A DNA stretch of 53,458 bases, counting the filler, from Perkinsus olseni (Eukaryota): assembly GCA_013115125.1 (NCBI GenBank). It is 3 parts of 3 records of this genome, joined end to end, with 100 filler letters (N's around TTAATTAATTAA, not from the genome) between each part and the next. Parts side by side here need not be neighbours in the genome. Positions count along the whole stretch, not along the records: positions 1 to 17,773 come from JABANN010000633.1; 2 more parts are not named here. One strand, written 5' to 3'. Of this stretch, positions 6,620-47,187 are shown one piece after another. The notes under the pieces were generated by a model. It had not been told where the DNA came from and made no database searches. It saw only the letters and a program-made list of their open reading frames with translations. The translations under genes and the position numbers were made by a program. Each line of letters begins with the position of its first letter. The first letter of the stretch is position 1.

Positions 6620-8167
6620 ATGGCTGTTCTCAGGCCTATCGTGGTTACTAACCGCTTAATTTCTATGAGTTCTGCTGTCGACGGTGGAAGGCCATCGTCG
6701 AGTTCTCAAGAGGGATCGATTGATACTCGCCTTCGAGGATGCCCCTTATCCACCATCATGAGAGATGGATCCTTTCTTCGCAATGCCGAGAGTCACGTCA
6801 ATGCACACTGTGCATCGGCTCCGGTTAAGTCGATCGACATTTTCTTGAGCCATTCGTGGTCAGCTGATGGCTTTTGGAAACAGATGGCTCTTCTTATCTG
6901 TTGTGGTAGTCCTTCCACTTACGTGGTGATATTGATTTCTTCTTCATTGGGAGCCTACCTTTTCCGCTCCCTTATGCCTTACGAATTGCTTTTTGAAATG
7001 GTCGTGCTCATCCTCGGCTTTGCATCATTCCTACTCAGTCTCTTCATCATCCCGTTATATAAGCATCGTAATACGATGGTATTTCTCGATAAATGTTGTA
7101 TACCACAGAATGACCCCATTGCCAAGTCCTATGGTATATCCAGGCTAGCAGACTATCTTCATGTATCGAACAAGTTATTGATACTCTGGTGGTGTGTCTA
7201 CGAGTTGGCCGTCTTCCTGCGGACTCATAAGAAGGAAGATCTTATCTTGGTTAATATGAACCACCTCAAGCTCTGTGTATCGCTGATGCTCTTGCAGTGG
7301 TTTGGTATTCTCATTCAGCGTCTGGAGGCGTATCTATTCGGGAGTGTTAAGCCAAACATGGTATGCGGGTATGCCTTGGCACTGGCTTCAGCTTTCTCAA
7401 TAGGGCTCGGAGCCTTCCGTTGTGGTGAGGATTGGCAGAAGTCCTCTTTCAGAGTGAAGAGCTTCAGCGTTCGCCGATCTAAGTGTTCATCATTAGCGGA
7501 CTACAACACCCTCAAGGACCGCATCACTGCCATGTATGGCTCTGAGACAAGGTTCGCAGAGGTCGTGAGAGGCCTATGGTTGGGCGAAGGCACCGAGACT
7601 CATATGCCAGGCTGGTTGCTCTGCAGGTCGTCTCTTCGTCTCATGTGCGCACCTTATATCATTTTAGCTGTTGCAAAGGCTGTAAATTCTATCGTCACTA
7701 TTGACCAATGTCCTTTGCCTATGATCCCTCTGCAACCTGCGGTGGCAGTCGGATATTCAACACCTGGGTTCAGCGAGGCTGATCCTCCGTCAAGTAGGGT
7801 ACTCGATTATCCTCTGCCGAGTCATGTGCTCGCAGGGCTCTGGAAATTGCGTTGGTCGATTATTCCAAACATGATGATGGCCCTTCGTGCTCCCTCCATG
7901 TTACTCGTAGGGCACAAACTCGTAACTAGCTGGAAGCCTAACGGGTCTGGACGATGGTGCCTTCGTATCACTTTCGCCATGTGCTTCGCTGCGTACAGTG
8001 GCTTAACGAACACGATATGCGGCTCTCGACTTCTCCACCATCCATTGCACCCAGGCCCGCTGACCGGACAGGTGAATGAGACTCTTCTATGGCTGGGCGG
8101 TTGCATCGCTGTGTCTGTTGTATCCCTGCTTCTACTGAGGTCTTATTCGTATCAACCAGTAAAATAA
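6620..8167 (+). CDS. Intronless multi-pass membrane protein with a TIR-like (TIR_2-type) domain interrupted by TM helices
   Basis: 515-aa ORF. Motifs IDIFLSHSW, VFLDKCCIPQ and LLILW-WCVYELAVF appear in TIR order, with several hydrophobic segments. Confidence 0.75.
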   Translation: MAVLRPIVVTNRLISMSSAVDGGRPSSSSQEGSIDTRLRGCPLSTIMRDGSFLRNAESHVNAHCASAPVKSIDIFLSHSWSADGFWKQMALLICCGSPSTYVVILISSSLGAYLFRSLMPYELLFEMVVLILGFASFLLSLFIIPLYKHRNTMVFLDKCCIPQNDPIAKSYGISRLADYLHVSNKLLILWWCVYELAVFLRTHKKEDLILVNMNHLKLCVSLMLLQWFGILIQRLEAYLFGSVKPNMVCGYALALASAFSIGLGAFRCGEDWQKSSFRVKSFSVRRSKCSSLADYNTLKDRITAMYGSETRFAEVVRGLWLGEGTETHMPGWLLCRSSLRLMCAPYIILAVAKAVNSIVTIDQCPLPMIPLQPAVAVGYSTPGFSEADPPSSRVLDYPLPSHVLAGLWKLRWSIIPNMMMALRAPSMLLVGHKLVTSWKPNGSGRWCLRITFAMCFAAYSGLTNTICGSRLLHHPLHPGPLTGQVNETLLWLGGCIAVSVVSLLLLRSYSYQPVK

Positions 8168-8220
8168 TTTACTTTCTCTCGAGAGTATCAACCAGTGTCA
8201 TGATTAATCGTCTCCGACAG

Positions 8221-8439
8221 GCGCCTCCGTATCACTTTCGCCGTGTGCTTTGCTGCGTACAGTGGCTCGACGTACATGATATGCGGCTATCGACTGTTCG
8301 GCTGTTCGGCCATCCACTGTACCCAGGCCCGGTAGGCGGGCCTGCGAATGAGGGGCTTCTTTGGCTAGTTGGATGCATCTCCGCGTCTGGTGTATCTTTG
8401 CTTTTACTGAGGTCTTATGCGTATCAACCAGTGAAATAG
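8221..8439 (+). pseudogene. Diverged duplicate of the last ~210 nt of the TIR-TM gene, frameshifted
   Basis: Aligns with 7957-8167 (ends LLLRSYAYQPVK* vs LLLRSYSYQPVK*). Preceded by a CAG acceptor. An 8-nt duplication (CTGTTCGG x2, ~8294-8309) shifts the frame. Confidence 0.75.
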
Positions 8440-8782
8440 TGGAGCTTTTTGGTCACTTTTTCACACTATACCAGTCTGCTCCCTTGGAGCCTATCGACCT
8501 GAGCATCAAAGAGCTGCCGCTTTGTTTATGCGGAATAGTGTCGAGTTCCCGGAAGAAGTGCATACATCGTTCCGATGCTTCAATCCCGTGTCCAGCACTC
8601 CGTAACATTCAACCCGCCTTAATGCCGTCGTATCGCGAGCTGCATGGCATTGTGATGGCGATGTGATGTTACCATTCATCTGTTAATACGTTTTTGAAAT
8701 TAACCTCTTCAACATCGTAGCTTGTTTAACCTGGATTGCGCTTGCCTAGTGCTGACAGCGTATCTTATAAGGACACCGTTCT

Positions 8783-13077: not shown

Positions 13078-14163
13078 TCATTTCACTTTGGCAAAGCCGA
13101 TGCGATTCCTATCCCAGTCGTAATAGTAGTAGTTTCCGTAGACGGCACCGAGGCCCAGGGTCCAGGCTTCACCGAAGTGGATTGCCAGCATGCACCTCCC
13201 CCCGTCCTTGATGACGTAGCTGGCAGGCGGTATCTCCAGAGGCACCTCCTCTCCTTTCAAGCCTCTCATAGAGAGCGTGATGGACGGTAGATAGTCGGCT
13301 TCCTCACAGGAGACGTCGTAAAAGCCCGAAAAGTCCTGAATCTTCACAGGCCTCTCACCGCCCACTTCAAGCCAAGCAAGCACTCTGAGTTCGACTTCTT
13401 GAGGCATGACGATGGCGTTGGTGCCGGAGTCGAAGAAAGCCGGGGTTGGTGCTACCATCCGGTACTCCCGAGAATCGCCAATGGTCAGCCTAGTGAGCGA
13501 GACGCTTTGATCTTCCCGGACTTCAACGAAGACAAGAGGGGGGACATAATTCCGCTTGTCTTCGCCGCCAAGGATGAGCTCACCCGTGGGATTCTCACCG
13601 GCGACGAGATACAGAGAGAAGGAACTCTTTTTGACGAACCGCGTTGACTTAGACCGGTTCATCAGCTGCTGCATCAGAGGGGCGTACGGCTTCATCCGAG
13701 CGTAATGAGGTGCCAGGCCGAGGCTGGCGAAGGGACGGCCCTCCGCACCAGCGATCAATCCGAAGCTGATATCGTTCGCAGTGACAGTACCGAAATCGAC
13801 CACCCCAGAGTGCTTGAAGATGGTCATATTCTCACCGTCATAGAATTGGAGGGCTTTCTTGGGACCGGGCTGGCATGGAGCCGGAGTGCACTCGTAACAC
13901 TTGAAAGCGAGCTTGTCGCAGCGTCCGGGGAACTCTTGCTCATACCAATGCTTCCATACAAGGAAGGTGTAGGGGTTGCCAGTATCCACTACTGCGTGAA
14001 TGTCCTGATTGTCGACCTTAAGATACGCCAACAGCTGCACTGAGTTCACGTGGCTTGTTACCCTCTGGGTTCTTATACCTATCCTTACTTTTTTATACCC
14101 ATTGGCTTCGAGTGAGAGCCCGATGAGGACGAGAATAGCGAGAATGTACTTCTTAGCCATCAT
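13078..14163 (-). CDS. Secreted pepsin-family (A1) aspartic protease, intronless
   Basis: Signal peptide MMAKKYILAILVLIGLSLEANG, catalytic motifs VVDTGN and FFDSGT, GELILGG, and C-terminal YDWDRNRIGFA. Confidence 0.92.
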   Translation of the reverse strand: MMAKKYILAILVLIGLSLEANGYKKVRIGIRTQRVTSHVNSVQLLAYLKVDNQDIHAVVDTGNPYTFLVWKHWYEQEFPGRCDKLAFKCYECTPAPCQPGPKKALQFYDGENMTIFKHSGVVDFGTVTANDISFGLIAGAEGRPFASLGLAPHYARMKPYAPLMQQLMNRSKSTRFVKKSSFSLYLVAGENPTGELILGGEDKRNYVPPLVFVEVREDQSVSLTRLTIGDSREYRMVAPTPAFFDSGTNAIVMPQEVELRVLAWLEVGGERPVKIQDFSGFYDVSCEEADYLPSITLSMRGLKGEEVPLEIPPASYVIKDGGRCMLAIHFGEAWTLGLGAVYGNYYYYDWDRNRIGFAKVK

Positions 14164-18726: not shown

Positions 18727-20619
18727 TTACAATAAAGGGTCAAATAAACGGGCATAGCCACTTTGGGTTGCAGGAGTAGCCGTAGCATGGTTCGGAGTAG
18801 ACAACCGACGACGACGACGAATCTTCTCCAAGTTGAAGCCAGTAACGAATCCGACGAAAGCTCCCACCAATAGAATAAGGAATACTTGTATAGTGGAATG
18901 CCTGGTGACGACCTCTTCAGCCGTGATGGATGATGTAGCTGGTTGTACGTACTGCGGAGTATAGAAGTAGTTGCTGTAACCAATCATTGCCAGGAAATCA
19001 GCCGGGTACCCTATATGTTCAACCGCAGCTGGGTCACTTGGCGGGAAATTATAGAAACCGTCGTTGTAGCGGACAACAAGCGTATCAGAGAGCTTCCACC
19101 AATACTGCACAACAGACTCCTGGAGGGCCTTGCAAGTAGCCGTGGACTTTGAGAGGGAAGCTTCCAGCAGCTTTGGTTGCCAATATTTGATAGCTGGCTT
19201 CACGAACTCCCGAGACATGTTGTCATAGTTTACTGCCATCCAGTTGGAGACGAAATCGAAGGCCCACCAAGCTGTCTCCTTCGCATTAGAAAAGTCGCCT
19301 TTATAACCCACTTGGAACTGTTTGGCGTACAAATTGGCAGTCTCAGCGAGCTCCATATCCCCAGCCTCGGACAGAGTCTTACAGAGGAAGGGGACGAACA
19401 AGCTGGTCGCTGGCGCATCTTCGCTGTAGTACAGAACAGCGTTATCGGGGTCGGGGTAGCCGATCATAGTGTAAGCCGTCCGCGGAATAGATATACCACG
19501 CGCGAACTGACCAGGCACCTCGGCCTCTCCCTCGCCTCCCTCGAGACGGTATGGGCTATGGAAAGGGCCAGCGAGGATACCCTTCGTCAAGTCGAACTGA
19601 GTGCCCTCGTAGTTGTCACGATAGATAGCCATCACATCTTCCAGGTCAAGCAGATGATCTGCCTGTACCGAGAAGGGGAGGTCGAATGGGTTCTCATGAA
19701 ATTGTACAACATTACTCGGTGAAGCGTGGCGGAATACATTCCAGATCCTCACACTGGTATACATGGGTAATTGCAGGCTCACAGTGCCATACACACGGAT
19801 CCAACTGAAGGGCTCCTCGCCGTCCCACAGGCCAATAGACAACGCCTCTGAGCGTAGGTTAGTAGAGAACAGGAAGTCCTCGTCGGGAGTCTGTGGGATC
19901 TCCTTGATGGTGTACTGGTTGGCGATAGCGGCGACATTGCCATCAGGGACCCTCTGAGCAGCCCACACTGCTGATCTGCCCGTAGAATCCTGAGCTATAT
20001 GGAACACCCATCCGTCGCCAGTGGCATCAACCAACGTGAGCGTCTCTCCTGTCTCCCAGTTCTCGGGATAGAAACCATACCTCTCGGCCATGGCGCCCAT
20101 GCTCTGAATCGCGCAGACTGCGCTCTTGCACCGCTCCAGGCCTATCATTGTCAGCTCTCGGATGGAGAACACCGCCGGGCCGTATTCACCAGAACTCGGG
20201 TCCTTCAAGTCAACACCGGGCTTCCCAGGCACACTGACCTCAGTCGTTGACTCCCCCATTGCGAGACCGTGCTCGTTCATCATACCATATTCCGACTCCC
20301 AATAGCCGTAGGTATGAGGGACCTCAGGAACGGTTGCGTTGATCGGAGTCGGAATCTGCTCTGGATCGTCATAGATCGCTGCACGCTTGGACCAGGTACG
20401 AGGGTAGAGATGACCGACACCATACACCGCGTGAACGGCACCATGAGAATGATTACGAGGGGGTATCAAAGCAAGCCTTGTATCACACTCAGAGCAGTCA
20501 GCCGTATGAGCCACCATGGGTACGCCTGTCTTCGAAGCACCCTTTGACACCAGTATAGTAGTGCACGCGATGGACACTGATAACGGCAATAACGTGAGCC
20601 GGGATAATAAGGCGGACAT
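18727..20619 (-). CDS. Peptidase C69 (dipeptidase, Ntn-hydrolase), signal peptide plus C-terminal TM, intronless
   Basis: MSALLSRLTLLPLSVSIA|CTTILVSKGAS (N-terminal Cys nucleophile), MNEHGLAMGEST, WAAQRVPDG, ANQYTI, and TM segment IQVFLILLVGAFVGFVTGF. Confidence 0.92.
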   Translation of the reverse strand: MSALLSRLTLLPLSVSIACTTILVSKGASKTGVPMVAHTADCSECDTRLALIPPRNHSHGAVHAVYGVGHLYPRTWSKRAAIYDDPEQIPTPINATVPEVPHTYGYWESEYGMMNEHGLAMGESTTEVSVPGKPGVDLKDPSSGEYGPAVFSIRELTMIGLERCKSAVCAIQSMGAMAERYGFYPENWETGETLTLVDATGDGWVFHIAQDSTGRSAVWAAQRVPDGNVAAIANQYTIKEIPQTPDEDFLFSTNLRSEALSIGLWDGEEPFSWIRVYGTVSLQLPMYTSVRIWNVFRHASPSNVVQFHENPFDLPFSVQADHLLDLEDVMAIYRDNYEGTQFDLTKGILAGPFHSPYRLEGGEGEAEVPGQFARGISIPRTAYTMIGYPDPDNAVLYYSEDAPATSLFVPFLCKTLSEAGDMELAETANLYAKQFQVGYKGDFSNAKETAWWAFDFVSNWMAVNYDNMSREFVKPAIKYWQPKLLEASLSKSTATCKALQESVVQYWWKLSDTLVVRYNDGFYNFPPSDPAAVEHIGYPADFLAMIGYSNYFYTPQYVQPATSSITAEEVVTRHSTIQVFLILLVGAFVGFVTGFNLEKIRRRRRLSTPNHATATPATQSGYARLFDPLL

Positions 20620-23996: not shown

Positions 23997-26900
23997 CTAC
24001 GGAATGATGCCGGCACCAGCGACATTCGCGACACTACTGGTCGCTATCTGGCCGCAGAAGACCGGTGTTAGGACCATAGTTACTGTTGATACGAGCTGAA
24101 GCAGGAGCCACAGCTGTGGAGCGTCGCCAGCAGAAGGCCCTTACCTTGATCAGTACGTGAACACTAGGACCCGCAGTGTCTTTGCACGGGTCACCGACTG
24201 TATCACCAACCACTGAGGCCTTGTGTGCTTCTGAGTTCTTACCACCATGACAACCGGTGATCTCTATGTACCTGACGGCAGCAGCAGTGATCGGACCGAC
24301 TGAAGGAGAAGCAGCCCACTTCTTAGCATTGTCCCAGGCCCCTCCAGCGTTGTTCAAGAAGAGGGCCATCAAAATGCCTGCAGCGGTTGAGAACATGAGG
24401 AAGGCTGCTATCACTTGTGCTCCCAGAGTGGTGTCACCACGGTACGAGCCGATGATACTGAGAGACCAAAGCTCATCACTGCTAGAAAACCAGTGAGAGT
24501 ATATTACCGGAAAGCAAAGCCAACGACGACCGGCGACAGGGCTGCCAAGGCGCCGGGTCGAATCATCTCCTTCAGAGCTGATCGGCTGACGATGGCAATG
24601 CACGTGTAATAGTCTGGCTTGTCGCTCCAGTCCATAATCCCAGGCCGTTCCTTGAACTGCCGACGCACCTGATCACGAAGAAATGACATTGGCAACGCCA
24701 AGAAGCAGATCTCACTTCGGTCACGACTTGTGCTGCCGCCCTTCCAACGGCGTTCATCGCCCAAGCAGCGAAGAGGAATACTAAACAGGCCCCGAGGATG
24801 CCACCAACGAACACTTCACATCGGGCTAGGTCCACGGACTCGAACCTGAGGAGACCATGGGAGAGGGCAGACAGCCCAAGAGCAGCATGACCGACCTCTT
24901 GCCAGTGTAGACACTGACTTCGTCCATAAAGGCAGCGAATAATAAGAAGCATGCCAATGCCGCAGTCCCGACCGAGAATCCCTTAGTGTTAGCCTTCGTC
25001 ACGTTGCCAACTGCGTCCAACTTGTCCGTGATAAGGCGAACTTCATCCGCCTGAGTTCAGTGGCCATAGGGCTCTATAACAGATCACCCAAAGTACCAGC
25101 GGAATCGACGAAAAGGTTTTGATAGTGGAACGTCTCTTCCCTCAGACGCACTCACTCCCATACTACCTGTTGGCTCATCTCCACAATTCCTCCAGCATTG
25201 TCAGCGATAGGTCCAAAGTTACTCATGGCCAAGACGAAGACAGCCGTAGAAAGCATACCCATGGTGGCCACAGCGGTGCCGAAAAGACCCGATTTGGTCG
25301 CCTCCGAAGCCGGTACCACACCAGCAGTAGCTGCCATACCTACACGAAGGATCATACACGAACCAACACTGCAGGGCGATCAACTACCCATGTAGTAGCT
25401 CGAGACCAGAGCGATAGATATGCACAGTACTGGAGCTGCTGTCGACTCCAGGCCAACCGCCATGCCTGATGGGTCATATCGCGTGGATGAATACACACGA
25501 GCCTTACCGGCTATAATATTCGTCGCCGGGCCGGTCGTCGAGGCGAAGGCGATGGAGCGTACCTTGTTGTGTCTAAAAGGAGCAGATACTCATCCAAGCT
25601 CGTGCAGGGAGAGGGGAGTTGACTCACTCGTAATCAGTGTAATACTGCGTGATAATGACGAAAAGGTAAGAACAGGCCATACCTACTGCACCGCAGCCGA
25701 AGAACCATGCCCAAGAGTTGGTATTGGGAACCCAGAGGAACCATCGGCAGAGGACCAGGAAACCGATGGTAGCCAAAAATAGGGTTACAGAATATCTGAG
25801 ACACCCACCACCACCGCGTCGACAAGAAAAGCGTGAGTGGTTACGCTCGCTTCATTATCTTCATGGGGTCCTCATCTGCAGTATCCTTAGCACTGTGAGT
25901 AGGCATACCCTTCTTAGCCCGGATCAGCATCATCCCCACAGAGGATACTACCATATCCATACAGTGCACCTGGAAGGGGTGTGTGGAGGCGCTGGGACAA
26001 CAGGCGCCGCAACCTACTGCTAGAGGGAAGGCTACAAAACCCGCTGTGACGCCCTTGTTCATCGACCCTTCATCAGCAAGGCTTCCCCCTAGAATCATAG
26101 CGGACAAAATTTCAGCCGCGATGGACTCGAAAGTGTCAGCACATTGCCCAGCGCAATCACCAACATTATCGCCAACCTGAGCCCAACAACAGGATCCATT
26201 GGAAGCTAGTCGTGAAGGGCTTACCAAGTCAGCGATAGTAGCGGGGTTCCTGGGGTCGTCTTCTGGGATGCCAGCTTCGACCTTACCAACAAGATCCGCT
26301 CCAACGTCGGCACCCTTGGTGTATATGCCTGACACGGGATAGGGCGAGTATTGGGGAGGACTGCGAAGGCGCTGGTACCTCCGCCAAGCTGGGCAAACAT
26401 GGCGACGAGGGAGGCACCAAAGCCGTAGCCGACCAGAAGAAGGGGGGCCTGCTGGAATCTGAGGTAGCATGGCGGTGAGAGAGATGAACGCGGAAGGGCA
26501 GGGCTCACTCAAGTGTGGGGTAGATAACCCTGAGGACGATCATGATGAAGGACAGGCCTCCGATAACCATAGCCACATTGACGAGGGAAGCGAAGCCCCC
26601 CGCCCTGAAGCATAGTTGGATTGCTGTATTGTAGCACCGTCTGGCCGCTGAGGAGACTCTCACATTAGCACGTACCTGATGGATGATATACCGACACTCT
26701 AGACCGGACGACTATCGCTTGTACTACCGACACCCACATCCCAGCGTAGCCAGCAAGGGCGCTACAAAATGCTCCGATCAAGAACGTACAAGCTGTGATG
26801 AGAGCCATGGCGAGGGAGGAGACTCTGAGATACAACACTCACACCCCAAACAGATAAGACTATCCGTCATACGTGGTCGCCTTCCCTCCACCCACTGCAC

Positions 26901-44692: not shown

Positions 44693-47187
44693 ATGGATAC
44701 TCGACTTGGCTGGAGCTTTCTACTTCTTGCGTGCTTCACCTTGTTCCATCGGATCTCAAATGCAGAGTCCCCATCGGAGATGGCCAACGTCTTGGCGGGC
44801 ACCATTAATAACTACGACATTTCCACCGGCGGCAACATGCCCCTCATGGCCAGGCCCTTTGGATTCAATCATTGGTCCGTAGCTACCACGATGCGTGATG
44901 GTCGTCTTGATTTCTCCCCAGCATCATCTGACTTCTACGGTATTCTGTGCACTCATCAGCCCTCGTGGTGGATAGGAGACTACGGGTACTTCCTCATACT
45001 GCCCAATGTGAATACCCCTTTCACCTCCTTTATAACGCTACCCGGGGCGAGCTTTTTCCGGCCAGATCAAACCGTGTACAGACCCTACTACTTTCGCACG
45101 TCCTTGGTCAACAGTGCCCCTGTTGCTGGCTACGGTTACGTCGTGACTGAGATGACTCCGACGGACCATGCGGCGGCTCTGCGTTTTCGGTTCGTCTCTA
45201 AAGGGAAGAAACAAATCATTTTTAGAAACTCTAGAGACCTCGTCTTGTTGTCGAAGCCGGATGAAGTGTCCAGGATCGTATTCACGACCAACGTGAACTC
45301 AGGCGGCGTCCCAGCCAACTTCCGAATGTTCGTTGTTATTGACGCCAAGCCTCTGCCGGTCTCCGTAACGCTCGATACTTCACTCTCCGTAACGCTCGAT
45401 ACTTCACTCTCGCGCGATGCCGTTCTGAGCTTCGACGTAGTTGGTGGTAATAGTACTACTACCGTGGTCGAGGTGAGGGTTGCCACTTCCTTCATCTCGG
45501 AGGCGCAGGCGTGGCTTAACCTTCGTAGGGAAGCTCCCTGGACCCGCACCTTCGACTTCCTCAAGGAACAGGGCAAGGGCGTTTGGGACGAGCGGATGTC
45601 AAGCATAGAGATAGACCCTGGTGTCAACAGTTACAATTTTCGGCGCACCTTCTACACCAACTACTACCGATCCCTCCTCTTCCCACGCCTACTAACTGAG
45701 CTCAACGAAACCGACACGAAGGTGCATTACAGTCCTTATACAGGGCGGGTCCATCCCGGGGAGCTGGCGGCTGACAGTGGTTTCTGGGACTCCTATAATA
45801 CGGTGTACCTGTGGCTGGACTTGGCGGCACCGGACGTCCTTGCGCGGCTACTTGAAGGCTGGGTCAACGCGTACAAGGAGGCCGGCTGGCTACCAACGTG
45901 GCCGTCGCCTGGGGAGAGACAGTCGATGATAGGAACAATGGGGGATGTGGTACGCGACAGATCGCTCCTGCATCATGAATTGGCGAAGTTGTGGTATGGT
46001 AGGTGTTCGCCTGGGCCATAGTGAGTGGGAAGGCTTCAGAAGAGGCGAAGCCGATGATGTACCAAGCGATAAGACAGGACGCTTTCGGGGAGTCGTCAGA
46101 GTCATCGCCCTTCGGACGTGCCTGCTCGAAGTATTATGACGAAAAAGGGTAAAACTGAAGCACTGCGCTCCGCTGCGAACTCTTGGCGATACAACCACAG
46201 GGCCTGCTGTCTCTCTGCAGATTCTTTCCCCCGTCGGAGTGTCCTGATTCTGTGTCCAGAGCCCTCATGAACATGGTGGCTGATTCCGCCATCGCCTTCG
46301 CGGCGGACAAGCTCGGTATGGCCGACGATGCCGCTGTCCTCCGTACGCGCGTCAGCCGGGCTGTCGATGCGAACTGGAACCCCGAGTTGGCAATATTCGG
46401 CCCTCGCGACGAGGCCGGCAACTGGTATAACATCTCCATCAAGAGTTGGAGCTCCCAAGCCTACACTGAGGGTGGTGCCCTGCAATACCGCTTTTGCCTG
46501 CCCTTCGACGTTCCACGCCTCGTAGGCCTGCATGGTGGTCGTGAGAAGTTCTGTGAGGCGATCCGAGGCCACTTTACTGACACCACCTTGCCGCTTTTCG
46601 AACCCTCCAGTCTCAGCATCATCACTCATGAGCAGAAGGAGCTCAGTCTCATAAGCGATCGCTTCGGGCAGTACGCGCACAACAATCAGCCCTCCCACCA
46701 TGTTCTTGGAGTTGCTCTGGCCGCCGGATGCACCACCGTAGCCGACGAGTACATGCGCCGGGTCCTCGAGGAGCTGTACAGCCCCGACGCCTGGTCCGGT
46801 GACGAAGACAACGGCGAGATGTCCGCTTGGTTCCTCTTGAATGCTATTGGTCTTTATATGATTGACTTTGGCAAAGATGAGCTGTTGCTGTTCTCTCCGA
46901 TGGTCGTTGGCTCAGTTCACATTAAATCGATGAACCTACTCATCGAGTCCTATGCCACAATTGATACTTCTTGTTCGCGTTGTCCATTTGTGTGCAGCGT
47001 CCGATGGTTCCCGTACTCCTTGGCATTATCACCATCGTCACCATCGGCTTCGAGGTCTCTAAGAGGGTGGCAGCCGATGAGGGGACAACTTCTGAGTAAT
47101 CGTACGATTGCCCGTTCTGAAGTGGAGAAGGGCGGCAGGCTTCTTTTCGAACTTTCACCTAACCCGTGTTCCACAGTAGCTTCTTGA
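44693..47187 (+). CDS. Secreted glycoside hydrolase family 92 (alpha-mannosidase), 3 exons
   Basis: Signal peptide, GGNMPLMARPFGFNHW, THQPSWWIGDYG, DSGFWDSY, WPSPGERQSMIGT, YAHNNQPSHH and GDEDNGEMSAW. Introns at ~45950-46002 and ~46149-46220. Confidence 0.93.
45360..45410 (+). repeat. In-frame 24-nt tandem duplication (SVTLDTSL x2) in GH92
   Basis: CTCCGTAACGCTCGATACTTCACT occurs twice in tandem. Confidence 0.9.

What the first reader, a model, noticed from the sequence alone, without database searches (positions are those of the whole stretch)
6833..7220. Membrane-embedded TIR-like domain: candidate uncharacterised NADase/signalling receptor family
Seen: IDIFLSHSW, then a two-helix hydrophobic insertion, then VFLDKCCIPQ, ..YLHVSNKLLILW and WCVYEL, followed by several more TM segments. 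Established: DxFxSH, vFxD and WCxxEL (with the catalytic Glu) are hallmarks of TIR_2/SARM1/bacterial and plant TIR NAD+ hydrolases. Inference: this is a TIR fold with a TM hairpin inserted between alphaA and betaB, fused to a multi-pass sensor or channel. It would be an unusual architecture and potentially an undescribed immune or signalling system in a parasitic protist. This is the best candidate for a novel system in the window.
Basis: partly seen in the sequence, partly recalled or inferred. Interest (0 to 1): 0.72.

Follow-up and report, generated by a model that had tools for sequence, protein, structure and literature searches.

The report
Membrane-woven TIR protein, deletion copy
This Perkinsus gene belongs to a large, unstudied family of perkinsid and dinoflagellate membrane proteins whose TIR immune-signalling domain is interrupted by pairs of membrane helices, but this copy has lost eight residues just before the presumed catalytic glutamate.

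Summary
The motifs are real. They lie in one uninterrupted 515-codon ORF (window 6620-8167, +). Its relatives are Perkinsus olseni and P. chesapeaki proteins and many dinoflagellate proteins: 946 cluster representatives at E<=0.001.

At family level the TIR reading holds:
- 24 of 25 close members hit Pfam TIR_2 at E<=1.
- The glutamate is E in 169 of 170 sequences that have a residue there.

The domain is not simply fused to a membrane part. It is assembled from separate segments between helix pairs TM1-2, TM3-4 and TM5-8, and all segments are predicted to lie on one side of the membrane.

NADase activity is untested. Verdict: new architectural variant of a known domain; this copy is probably impaired.

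The parts
6620..8167 (+). Single uninterrupted ORF of 515 codons plus stop (protein P0001).
   Evidence: Homologs at E down to 7.8e-219. tblastn finds only this full copy in the window.
6728..6781 (+). Conserved N-terminal element (residues 37-54; family motif LRG..L), modelled as a strand plus short helices. It lies outside the part that aligns to solved TIR domains.
   Evidence: Strand 38-42 and helices 43-48 and 51-54. R39 is conserved in 98 of 105 sequences. TIR alignments of the paralog model start at its residues 50-54.
6833..6901 (+). TIR strand A (IDIFLSHSW, residues 72-80) and helix A (84-94).
   Evidence: Strand 72-77 and helix 84-94. F75 110/110, S77 109/110, H78 110/110, W80 110/110, K87 108/110.
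6911..7063 (+). Membrane hairpin TM1 (98-116) and TM2 (122-148), inserted between TIR helix A and strand B.
   Evidence: Helices. Hydropathy. The connecting loop has 5 residues and no K or R.
7076..7189 (+). TIR strand B (VFLD), the CCIPQ.D loop, helix B and strand C (KLLILW); residues 153-190.
   Evidence: Strand 153-155, helices 157-182 and strand 183-188. F155 and D157 111/111, C160 104/111, Q163 110/111, G172 102/111, S183 105/111. Pfam TIR_2/TIR matches in paralogs cover this stretch through strand D.
7189..7190 (+). Junction of an in-frame 24-nt deletion. The eight codons (SPDYLxRL in relatives) between strand C and helix C are missing.
   Evidence: Contigs bridge 7161-7219 without a difference in run X1 at flank depth and in run X7. 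Paralog contigs that branch off at 7190 carry the extra codons (table 7).
7190..7255 (+). TIR helix C with WCVYEL (W191; E195 = the presumed catalytic glutamate) and strand D (residues 208-212).
   Evidence: Helix 193-202 and strand 208-210. W191 and E195 111/111. E in 169 of 179 sequences, 9 gaps, 1 T.
7256..7459 (+). Second membrane hairpin, TM3 (213-240) and TM4 (245-280, which runs on past the membrane), directly after strand D.
   Evidence: Helices. The connecting loop has 4 residues. TM3 is only moderately hydrophobic here (mean KD 1.01; family mean 1.22).
7463..7582 (+). Conserved soluble module F282..C289..D294 with helices 292-306 and 309-321. It packs with the TIR core.
   Evidence: F282 102/111, C289 104/111, D294 111/111, F312 106/110, V316 97/110.
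7625..8143 (+). Four further long helices: TM5 (336-363), TM6 (402-437), TM7 (444-467), TM8 (487-508). A poorly modelled variable loop (364-401) lies between TM5 and TM6.
   Evidence: pLDDT blocks are 48-57 for residues 371-400. Sequence conservation here is low apart from P345 and P425.
8144..8164 (+). C-terminal tail (YSYQPVK). In the models it returns to the TIR sheet as a short beta bridge.
   Evidence: Single-residue strand at 511 and at 483 of the paralog. TIR alignments of the paralog model extend to its last residues, range ..489.
8220..8438 (+). Decayed tandem copy of the ORF's last ~210 nt (TM7, TM8, tail, stop), lying after the stop codon.
   Evidence: Direct repeats 7956-8031/8220-8295 (88% identity) and 8026-8166/8298-8438 (77%). 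An 8-nt insertion shifts the frame. tblastn gives two HSPs in different frames.

Best explanation
The ORF encodes a member of a large family of roughly 500-residue membrane proteins found in Perkinsus and dinoflagellates. In this family a TIR-superfamily domain on one face of the membrane (probably the cytosolic face) is built from separate pieces of the chain:
- strand A and helix A
- then the TM1-TM2 hairpin
- then strands B to D with helices B and C
- then the TM3-TM4 hairpin
- then a conserved helical module
- then TM5-TM8
- then a C-terminal tail that returns to the sheet.

Shown here: family membership, the TIR-like fold of an intact paralog model, the interleaved arrangement in the models, and conservation concentrated in the soluble pieces, including the glutamate of WCxYE.

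Inferred:
- The family consists of membrane-held TIR enzymes that cleave NAD(P)+ or make an NAD-derived signal. I put this at about 0.4.
- Because the membrane helices are spliced straight into the strands that frame the active-site region, a change in the membrane domain (ligand, lipid or oligomerisation) could switch the enzyme.

The window copy has lost 24 nt, eight codons (SPDYLxRL), between strand C and the helix carrying the glutamate. The deletion lies between two CTCTGG repeats. The gene is otherwise intact and probably transcribed. I read it as a recently altered paralog whose TIR site is probably impaired (about 0.5), not as a typical member.
For: Family
- Hits at E 7.8e-219 to 1e-3, named P. 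olseni, P. chesapeaki, MMETSP transcripts and Prorocentrum.
- 946 representatives at E<=0.001.
- Durusdinium trenchii among the cluster names.

TIR by sequence
- Of 25 close members, 24 hit TIR_2, 18 hit TIR and 12 hit ThsB_TIR at E<=1.
- Four members pass the curated cutoff of PF01582 (21.3 bits): P0024 32.6, P0026 29.1, P0025 21.7, P0048 25.0.
- Of 88 distant members, 30 hit TIR_2 and 23 hit TIR at E<=0.01. No other family recurs in more than one member.

TIR by structure
- The paralog P0007 model has pLDDT 88.8 and pTM 0.90.

Conservation
- F155, D157, W191, E195 and D294 are invariant in 111 sequences.
- 52 of the 58 positions with >=60% conservation lie in the soluble pieces.

Topology
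- An even number of helices lies between soluble pieces (2, 2, 4).
- The outer loops carry K+R = 0, 1, 1, 1. The inner pieces carry 9, 8, 10, 1, 1.

Deletion
- Of 179 aligned sequences, 170 have 8 residues at the site and one has 42. Two are cut there and 5 do not cover it. The window protein alone has none.
- The window protein hits no Pfam family at E<=10.
- A contig covers 7161-7219 with no difference at depth 160.7 in run X1, against flank depths of 156-169. In X7 the same piece has depth 466 against flanks of 331-371.

Transcription hint
- X7 covers only 6641-8514, while the DNA runs continue on both sides.
Against: Against the TIR assignment
- Foldseek found nothing at E<=0.001 for either model. 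For the paralog model plant TIRs appear only at E 0.3-1.1 among helical noise.
- The family profile against PDB sequences gives only IL1RAPL2 TIR at E 0.014 (25 sequences) and 0.45 (111 sequences).
- No member seen individually or in the counts reached TIR_2's curated cutoff of 28 bits; the best was 27.1.
- The Pfam matches cover only strands B to D.

Against the architecture
- No dedicated transmembrane predictor was available.
- TM3, TM5, TM6 and TM7 of the window protein are only moderately hydrophobic (mean KD 0.71-1.01).
- I could not inspect model coordinates. Which strand pairs with which is inferred from the DSSP strings and the alignment ranges.

Against the function
- No biochemical evidence exists for any member. 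Many TIR domains with the same glutamate act as scaffolds.

Against 'impaired copy'
- The ORF is intact.
- All 5 invariant columns are kept, as are the 15 near-invariant columns outside the gap.
- The terminal branch is short (0.034, against a median of 0.18).
- The deleted form seems to be transcribed.
- AlphaFold still folds it with pLDDT 91-95 around the junction.
Confidence: 0.6

Rival explanations
1. The family's TIR domain does not act as an enzyme. It is a protein-protein interaction scaffold, as classically described for TLR, IL-1R and MyD88. The membrane part would be a receptor that recruits unknown TIR adaptors.
For: - The best sequence match among solved structures is an IL-1 receptor-family TIR (IL1RAPL2, E 0.014).
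- MyD88, IL-18R-beta, IL-1RAcPb, MAL and TLR TIRs score nearly as well as enzymatic TIRs.
- 18 of 25 close members hit PF01582. The TIR atlas text says this model corresponds largely to the animal clade.
Against: - The glutamate, plus extra invariant polar residues (H78, D157, Q163, D294), look more like an active site than an interface.
- The outer loops are very short (family means 4-9 residues), which leaves little for ligand recognition.
- A 2026 preprint reports that TIR domains from diverse animals and from protists of four lineages are catalytically active (abstract and passages only).
Confidence: 0.2
2. The eight-residue deletion is tolerated or adaptive. The window copy would then be a working variant, for example a regulatory or dominant-negative partner of intact paralogs, and not a damaged gene.
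For: - The ORF is intact and has a short branch (0.034).
- All conserved residues outside the gap are kept.
- The junction contig stands at full flank depth in DNA, and the deleted form is present in a probable RNA run.
- AlphaFold is confident around the junction.
Against: - The window protein is the only one of the 172 sequences complete across the site that has nothing there. Two near-invariant columns (Y, L) fall inside the gap.
- The closest relative, P0002, has also lost a near-invariant residue (D165), which hints at relaxed constraint in this small subclade.
- A short branch is also what a very recent loss would show.
Confidence: 0.35
3. The domain works like a fungal HET domain, a TIR-related cell-death inducer of unknown chemistry, and not like a classical TIR NADase. 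The membrane helices would execute or regulate cell death.
For: - The loop after strand B (D-x-x-C-I-x-Q-x-D) and the R-x-W-x-x-x-E stretch resemble what I recall of the HET signature. This is recall, not a test.
- One member (P0027) hits Pfam HET over exactly that loop: E 0.063, 14.1 bits, profile positions 44-85.
- HET is described as remotely homologous to TIR (passages of PMC10890737).
Against: - HET is hit by 1 of 25 close members at E<=1, below its 22.5-bit cutoff, and by 0 of 88 distant members at E<=0.01.
- TIR models hit far more often.
- No profile-profile comparison could be run.
Confidence: 0.1
4. The TIR resemblance is spurious: a generic three-layer alpha/beta domain attached to a helical bundle.
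For: - Foldseek E-values are not significant.
- The wide-search Z stays below 8.
Against: - Sequence and structure evidence are independent and point to the same family.
- The matches cover 84-98% of small TIR targets, for example 127 of 135 residues of MyD88 and 128 of 131 of SARM1.
- An iterative TIR HMM in an independent study also picked up dinoflagellate members.
Confidence: 0.05

Closest known systems
Enzymatic TIR domains (SARM1, plant TNL TIRs such as RPP1 and RUN1, bacterial AbTir and ThsB)
   Same: - The W-C-x-x-E helix with its glutamate is conserved.
- The strand A motif D.F.SH and the strand B motif F.D are present.
   Different: - The domain chain is broken by membrane hairpins after helix A and after strand D. 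Its last elements come after four more helices.
- There are extra invariant residues (H78, Q163, D294) and a C-I-x-Q-x-D loop.
- No partner domains such as NB-ARC, LRR, SAM or ARM recur in the long forms.
- Activity is untested.
Membrane-tethered protist TIR proteins: Dictyostelium TirC, and the transmembrane TIR proteins of Gephyrocapsa huxleyi
   Same: TIR domains of unicellular eukaryotes held at a membrane. For TirC an N-terminal transmembrane helix restrains a toxic NADase (passages of PMC13142454). In G. huxleyi, TIR genes expressed during infection have an extracellular region or several N-terminal membrane helices followed by a TIR (passages of PMC12489294).
   Different: In those proteins the membrane part precedes a contiguous TIR. 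Here the helices are inserted inside the TIR. No expression or infection data exist for this family.
Toll-like and IL-1 receptor TIR domains
   Same: - The best PDB sequence match is IL1RAPL2.
- PF01582 is hit by 18 of 25 close members.
- Both are membrane proteins with the TIR on one face.
   Different: - The family has eight predicted helices, not a single pass.
- It has no LRR or Ig ectodomain, and its outer loops are only a few residues long.
Fungal HET domain (PF06985)
   Same: The motifs after strand B and before the glutamate are similar (recalled). There is one weak Pfam hit over that loop. HET is TIR-related according to PMC10890737.
   Different: There is no significant HET match in the family. 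HET proteins are soluble and are often joined to NLR or lectin parts.
Unclassified eukaryotic TIRs in the 2026 TIR atlas (supplementary table of PMC13142454)
   Same: Rows from Gymnodinium catenatum and Protoceratium reticulatum show this family's motifs and hydrophobic stretches. By eye, short rows from choanoflagellates (Diaphanoeca, an acanthoecid) and a green alga (Pterosperma) share the motifs after strand B, around the glutamate, and C...DR...F.
   Different: The atlas labels them 'Not in supported Clade' with TIR matches of only about 40-70 residues. I saw no description of their architecture in what I read. The choanoflagellate and green-algal rows appear, by eye and not by computation, to lack the membrane hairpins.

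Membership tests
TIR domain superfamily (Pfam TIR_2 PF13676 / TIR PF01582) | A sequence match to a Pfam TIR model, ideally above the curated cutoff. | tested here: not met
   - The window protein hits 0 families at E<=10.
- Relatives do match: 24 of 25 hit TIR_2 and 18 of 25 hit TIR at E<=1.
- Four relatives pass the PF01582 cutoff.
- None of the members I saw reached the TIR_2 cutoff; the best was 27.1 against 28 bits.
TIR domain superfamily (Pfam TIR_2 PF13676 / TIR PF01582) | An alpha/beta fold that superposes on solved TIR domains. | tested here: inconclusive
   - Foldseek alone is not significant.
TIR domain superfamily (Pfam TIR_2 PF13676 / TIR PF01582) | A conserved glutamate in the W-C-x-x-E helix. 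That this is the catalytic residue of TIR NADases is recalled knowledge, supported by passages. | tested here: met
   E195 is present in the window protein. It is invariant in 111 sequences and in 88 sequences. Among 179 sequences it is E in 169, T in 1 and a gap in 9.
TIR domain superfamily (Pfam TIR_2 PF13676 / TIR PF01582) | An intact connection between strand C and helix C (the S/T-P-x-Y-x-x-R-L stretch of this family). | tested here: not met
   The eight residues are absent from the window protein only. The deletion is confirmed in public contigs.
TIR domain superfamily (Pfam TIR_2 PF13676 / TIR PF01582) | NAD(P)+ hydrolase or cyclase activity. | not testable with these tools
No paper on this family was found.
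The perkinsid and dinoflagellate family of TIR proteins interleaved with membrane helices (defined here) | Full-length homology, including the soluble modules and the eight helices. | tested here: met
   - E 7.8e-219 to P0002. Identity is 76-86% to the closest P. olseni proteins.
- The window protein sits inside a starred P. olseni subclade.
- Its helix pattern matches that of the paralog model.
Fungal HET domain (PF06985) | A sequence match to the Pfam HET model. | tested here: not met
   Only 1 of 25 members matches, at E 0.063 and 14.1 bits against a cutoff of 22.5. None of 88 distant members matches at E<=0.01. The window protein gives no hit.
Toll-like / IL-1 receptor architecture | A single membrane pass with an LRR or Ig ectodomain before a contiguous TIR. 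| tested here: not met
   The models have eight long helices and no ectodomain. No LRR or Ig Pfam hit was found.
ABCG / ABC-2 type six-helix membrane domain | Structural superposition of TM3-TM8. | tested here: inconclusive
   [not shown]

The most novel reading that the evidence does not exclude
The family is a new class of receptor-enzyme. A TIR catalytic domain is threaded through an eight-helix bundle, so that movements of the membrane helices, which are spliced directly onto strands B and D and onto the C-terminal strand, open or close the NAD+ site. This would give perkinsids and dinoflagellates a membrane-gated source of NAD-derived signals, or of NAD+ depletion, used in defence against viruses or in the control of cell death. 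The soluble relatives seen by eye in choanoflagellates and green algae would be the ancestral form, into which the hairpins were inserted.
Probability: 0.3. Interest if true: 0.8.

Novelty: new variant of a known kind. Interest (0 to 1): 0.55.

Why it matters
TIR domains are central to immunity in bacteria, plants and animals. How their enzymatic activity is switched on is an active question. A TIR whose chain is interrupted three times by membrane helices would be a new way to couple a membrane event to TIR chemistry.

The family is large (946 clusters at 50% identity). It occurs in ecologically important dinoflagellates, coral symbionts included (Durusdinium), and in the mollusc parasite Perkinsus. 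No member has been studied.

For this particular gene the practical message is caution. It is the one copy with the key segment deleted, so it is a poor choice for a first assay. It is, however, a natural comparison partner for its intact paralogs.

Tried and rejected
- Foldseek against the PDB with both full-length models gave nothing at E<=0.001.
- Family profiles against PDB sequences gave only a marginal TIR hit. With the larger alignment they gave hydrophobic-bias hits to designed proteins and a sensory rhodopsin, which I discount.
- Whole-genome paralog count: no genome is held for this window.
- Self-association of the intact paralog (two copies): the job never entered the queue, so nothing is known. 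The tool reported a full queue. Repeats sent too soon were not passed on.
- ESM Atlas: the nearest clusters score 0.96-0.97, carry no common Pfam family, and are 'commonest Haptophyta' on very few labelled members. This is a lead only, and I draw no range from it.
- Looking for recurrent fused domains in 17 longer relatives: each extra domain (beta-lactamase, ABC_membrane, PhyH, LUC7, mRNA_triPase) occurs once, so these are probably merged gene models.
- The second word-index search, with the distant alignment, returned only 18 proteins and added no new named taxa.
- The bacterial promoter and terminator scan upstream is irrelevant for a eukaryote and showed nothing useful.
- Runs X3 and X9 neither show nor exclude the deletion. 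No listed piece bridges the junction, and 45 pieces were not shown.
- The first mafft run timed out and was repeated with faster settings.
- A Pfam scan of all 111 members exceeded the size limit and was redone on 88.
Full report
WHAT IS THERE

Window 6620-8167 (+) is one uninterrupted ORF of 515 codons.
- IDIFLSHSW, residues 72-80, nt 6833-6859.
- VFLDKCCIPQ, residues 154-163.
- YLHVSNKLLILW, residues 179-190.
- WCVYEL, residues 191-196, ending at nt 7207.

Two long hydrophobic helices lie between the first two motifs, and six more long helices follow. The ORF is a real gene. Database proteins of Perkinsus olseni match at E 7.8e-219 to 1e-173, and P. chesapeaki, MMETSP transcripts and Prorocentrum cordatum follow. 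An exhaustive phmmer scan finds 946 cluster representatives at E<=0.001, 99 at <=1e-10 and 20 at <=1e-30. Among ten representatives looked up, the named ones are P. chesapeaki, Durusdinium trenchii and MMETSP transcripts. The exact 515-residue protein is not in the 15-billion-sequence collection.

In the 25-sequence alignment every other member has eight residues (SPDYLxRL) between ..LLILW and WCVYEL... I aligned all 179 proteins held at that time:
- 170 have eight residues there.
- One has 42 (probably a retained intron).
- Two are cut at the site.
- Five do not reach it.
- The window protein alone spans it with none.

Two near-invariant columns (Y and L) fall inside the gap. Public contigs show that this is not an assembly slip. 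In run X1 a contig covers 7161-7219 without a difference at depth 160.7, the same as the single-copy flanks (156-169). In X7 the same piece has depth 466 against flanks of 331-371. Contigs that branch off at 7190 carry the extra codons of paralogs. Their letters show that the 24 nt lie between two CTCTGG repeats, the signature of a slippage or microhomology deletion. One of these runs may be the source of the assembly, so independence is limited. X3 and X9 are uninformative at the junction.

IS IT A TIR? SEQUENCE EVIDENCE

The window protein itself hits no Pfam family even at E<=10. Its relatives do:
- At E<=1, 24 of 25 hit TIR_2 (best 6.4e-6), 18 hit TIR and 12 hit ThsB_TIR.
- Four members pass PF01582's curated cutoff.
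- None that I saw reaches TIR_2's 28 bits; the best is 27.1.
- Among 88 distant, mostly dinoflagellate-type members, 30 hit TIR_2 and 23 hit TIR at E<=0.01. No other family recurs.
- The matches cover only profile positions about 27-98 of 122, that is strands B to D. This is expected if strand A is separated by an insertion.

Against this, family profiles searched against PDB sequences give only IL1RAPL2 TIR, at E 0.014 and 0.45.

IS IT A TIR? STRUCTURE EVIDENCE

AlphaFold with a 111-sequence alignment gives confident models. The window protein has pLDDT 84.0 and pTM 0.85. The intact P. olseni paralog P0007 has pLDDT 88.8 and pTM 0.90.

Foldseek finds nothing significant for either model. For the paralog, plant TIRs appear at E 0.3-1.1 among helical noise.

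Taken together with the sequence hits, I hold the TIR-superfamily assignment of the family at about 0.85. The window copy is a visibly weakened version.

ARCHITECTURE

From the DSSP strings the order in the window protein is:
- strand A (72-77), helix A (84-94)
- TM1 (98-116), TM2 (122-148)
- strand B (153-155), helices B, strand C (183-188), helix C with the glutamate (193-202), strand D (208-210)
- TM3 (213-240), TM4 (245-280)
- a conserved module F282..C289..D294 with two helices (292-321)
- TM5-TM8
- a C-terminal tail that forms a beta bridge.

The TIR alignments of the paralog model run from about residue 51 to the very last residues, so the tail is used as part of the TIR-like sheet. The number of helices between soluble pieces is even (2, 2, 4). 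The outer loops are short and poor in K+R (0, 1, 1, 1), whereas the inner pieces carry 9, 8, 10, 1, 1. This fits all TIR pieces being cytosolic.

Conservation is concentrated in the soluble pieces: 52 of the 58 positions with >=60% identity. F155, D157, W191, E195 and D294 are invariant in 111 sequences. The membrane helices keep little beyond prolines. This argues that the conserved function sits in the TIR-like domain, not in a conserved pore.

Caveats:
- No transmembrane predictor was available.
- Four helices of this copy are only moderately hydrophobic.
- I could not see the model coordinates.

STATE OF THIS COPY

Apart from the deletion the gene looks healthy. The frame is open, all conserved residues outside the gap are kept, and its terminal branch is 0.034 against a median of 0.18. 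It sits in a five-member P. olseni subclade. Its nearest relative, P0002, carries the eight residues but lacks the near-invariant D165.

Run X7, which is guessed to be RNA, covers only 6641-8514 while the DNA runs continue on both sides. It includes the deleted junction. That is a hint, not proof, that the deleted form is transcribed, with the downstream duplicate in its 3' untranslated part.

CONTEXT

The window holds no second copy. Larger ORFs nearby encode an aspartyl protease, a C69 peptidase, an H+-pyrophosphatase piece and GH92 pieces. There is nothing immune-related. Seventeen longer relatives show no recurrent fused domain.

LITERATURE

Search listings:
- Searches for Perkinsus plus TIR domain returned 13 papers. 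By their titles and abstract starts, all concern molluscs, other invertebrates or their immunity, not the parasite's own proteins.
- Searches on dinoflagellates or Symbiodiniaceae, on huxleyi, and on multi-pass TIRs found no description of this family.
- A 2020 TIR survey has no occurrence of Perkinsus, alveolates or protists (term search).

PMC13142454 (one section, passages, and parts of supplementary file 1):
- It presents an atlas of 7,432 eukaryotic TIR domains with several uncharacterised eukaryote-only clades.
- Its table contains dinoflagellate rows (Gymnodinium catenatum, Protoceratium reticulatum) that show this family's motifs. They are labelled 'Not in supported Clade', with TIR matches of about 45-70 residues.
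- The single P. marinus row shown in the part I read is a different protein. The term search counted six occurrences of 'Perkinsus' in that file.
- Short rows from choanoflagellates and a green alga share the soluble motifs and, by eye only, seem to lack the hairpins.

Other papers (passages only):
- PMC12489294 describes G. huxleyi TIR proteins with N-terminal membrane helices, expressed during viral infection.
- PMC10890737 states the remote homology of HET and TIR.
- The preprint 10.64898/2026.04.20.719644 reports catalytic TIRs in protists and a conserved glutamate.

I did not open Table S9 of PMC12489294 or the supplements of that preprint. They might list similar architectures.

MECHANISM AND RIVALS

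Most likely (0.6 overall) the family is a membrane-interleaved TIR. The enzyme reading, NAD(P)+ cleavage or signal production gated by the membrane part, is inferred at about 0.4. The window copy is probably impaired (about 0.5). Rivals:
- A non-enzymatic TIR scaffold (0.2).
- A tolerated or regulatory deletion variant (0.35 for the status of this copy).
- A HET-like death domain (0.1).
- A spurious resemblance (0.05).

NOVELTY

The domain is known, and automatic pipelines already name paralogs as TIR proteins. What appears undescribed is the architecture, a TIR interrupted three times by membrane helices, together with the size of the family in perkinsids and dinoflagellates. This particular gene, however, is the atypical, deleted member.

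Noticed in passing
window 8220-8438 (compare 7956-8166): A decayed tandem duplicate of the ORF's last ~210 nt (TM7, TM8, tail and stop) lies just after the stop codon. It is 77-88% identical and has an 8-nt insertion that shifts the frame. The gene model of the closest P. olseni protein, P0002, appears to splice into the equivalent duplicate.
   Followed up: partly
window 7971-8061 joined to 8391 (contigs in runs X1, X3, X7, X9): In all four runs a contig with 7 differences over 91 nt joins 8061 to 8391. Because it also stands in DNA runs, it is a paralogous or allelic locus without the duplicated segment, not a splice.
   Followed up: no
protein P0002 (closest relative), aligned to window residues 164-167: The nearest relative keeps the eight residues but lacks the near-invariant D165 of the C-I-x-Q-x-D loop. 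Two different lesions in the TIR core of one small subclade may mean relaxed constraint.
   Followed up: no
[not shown]
   Followed up: partly
window 13081-14163 (-), 18730-20619 (-), 25844-26470 (-), 44693-46018 and 46267-47184 (+): Neighbouring ORFs match eukaryotic aspartyl protease, peptidase C69, an internal piece of H+-pyrophosphatase, and two consecutive pieces of glycosyl hydrolase family 92. The last two cases look like exons of split genes.
   Followed up: no
supplementary file 1 of PMC13142454 (rows from Diaphanoeca grandis, an acanthoecid, Pterosperma sp.): Short transcriptome proteins of choanoflagellates and a green alga show the same motifs after strand B, around the glutamate, and in the C...DR...F module. 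By eye they have no hydrophobic hairpins, so they may be soluble relatives of the domain.
   Followed up: no
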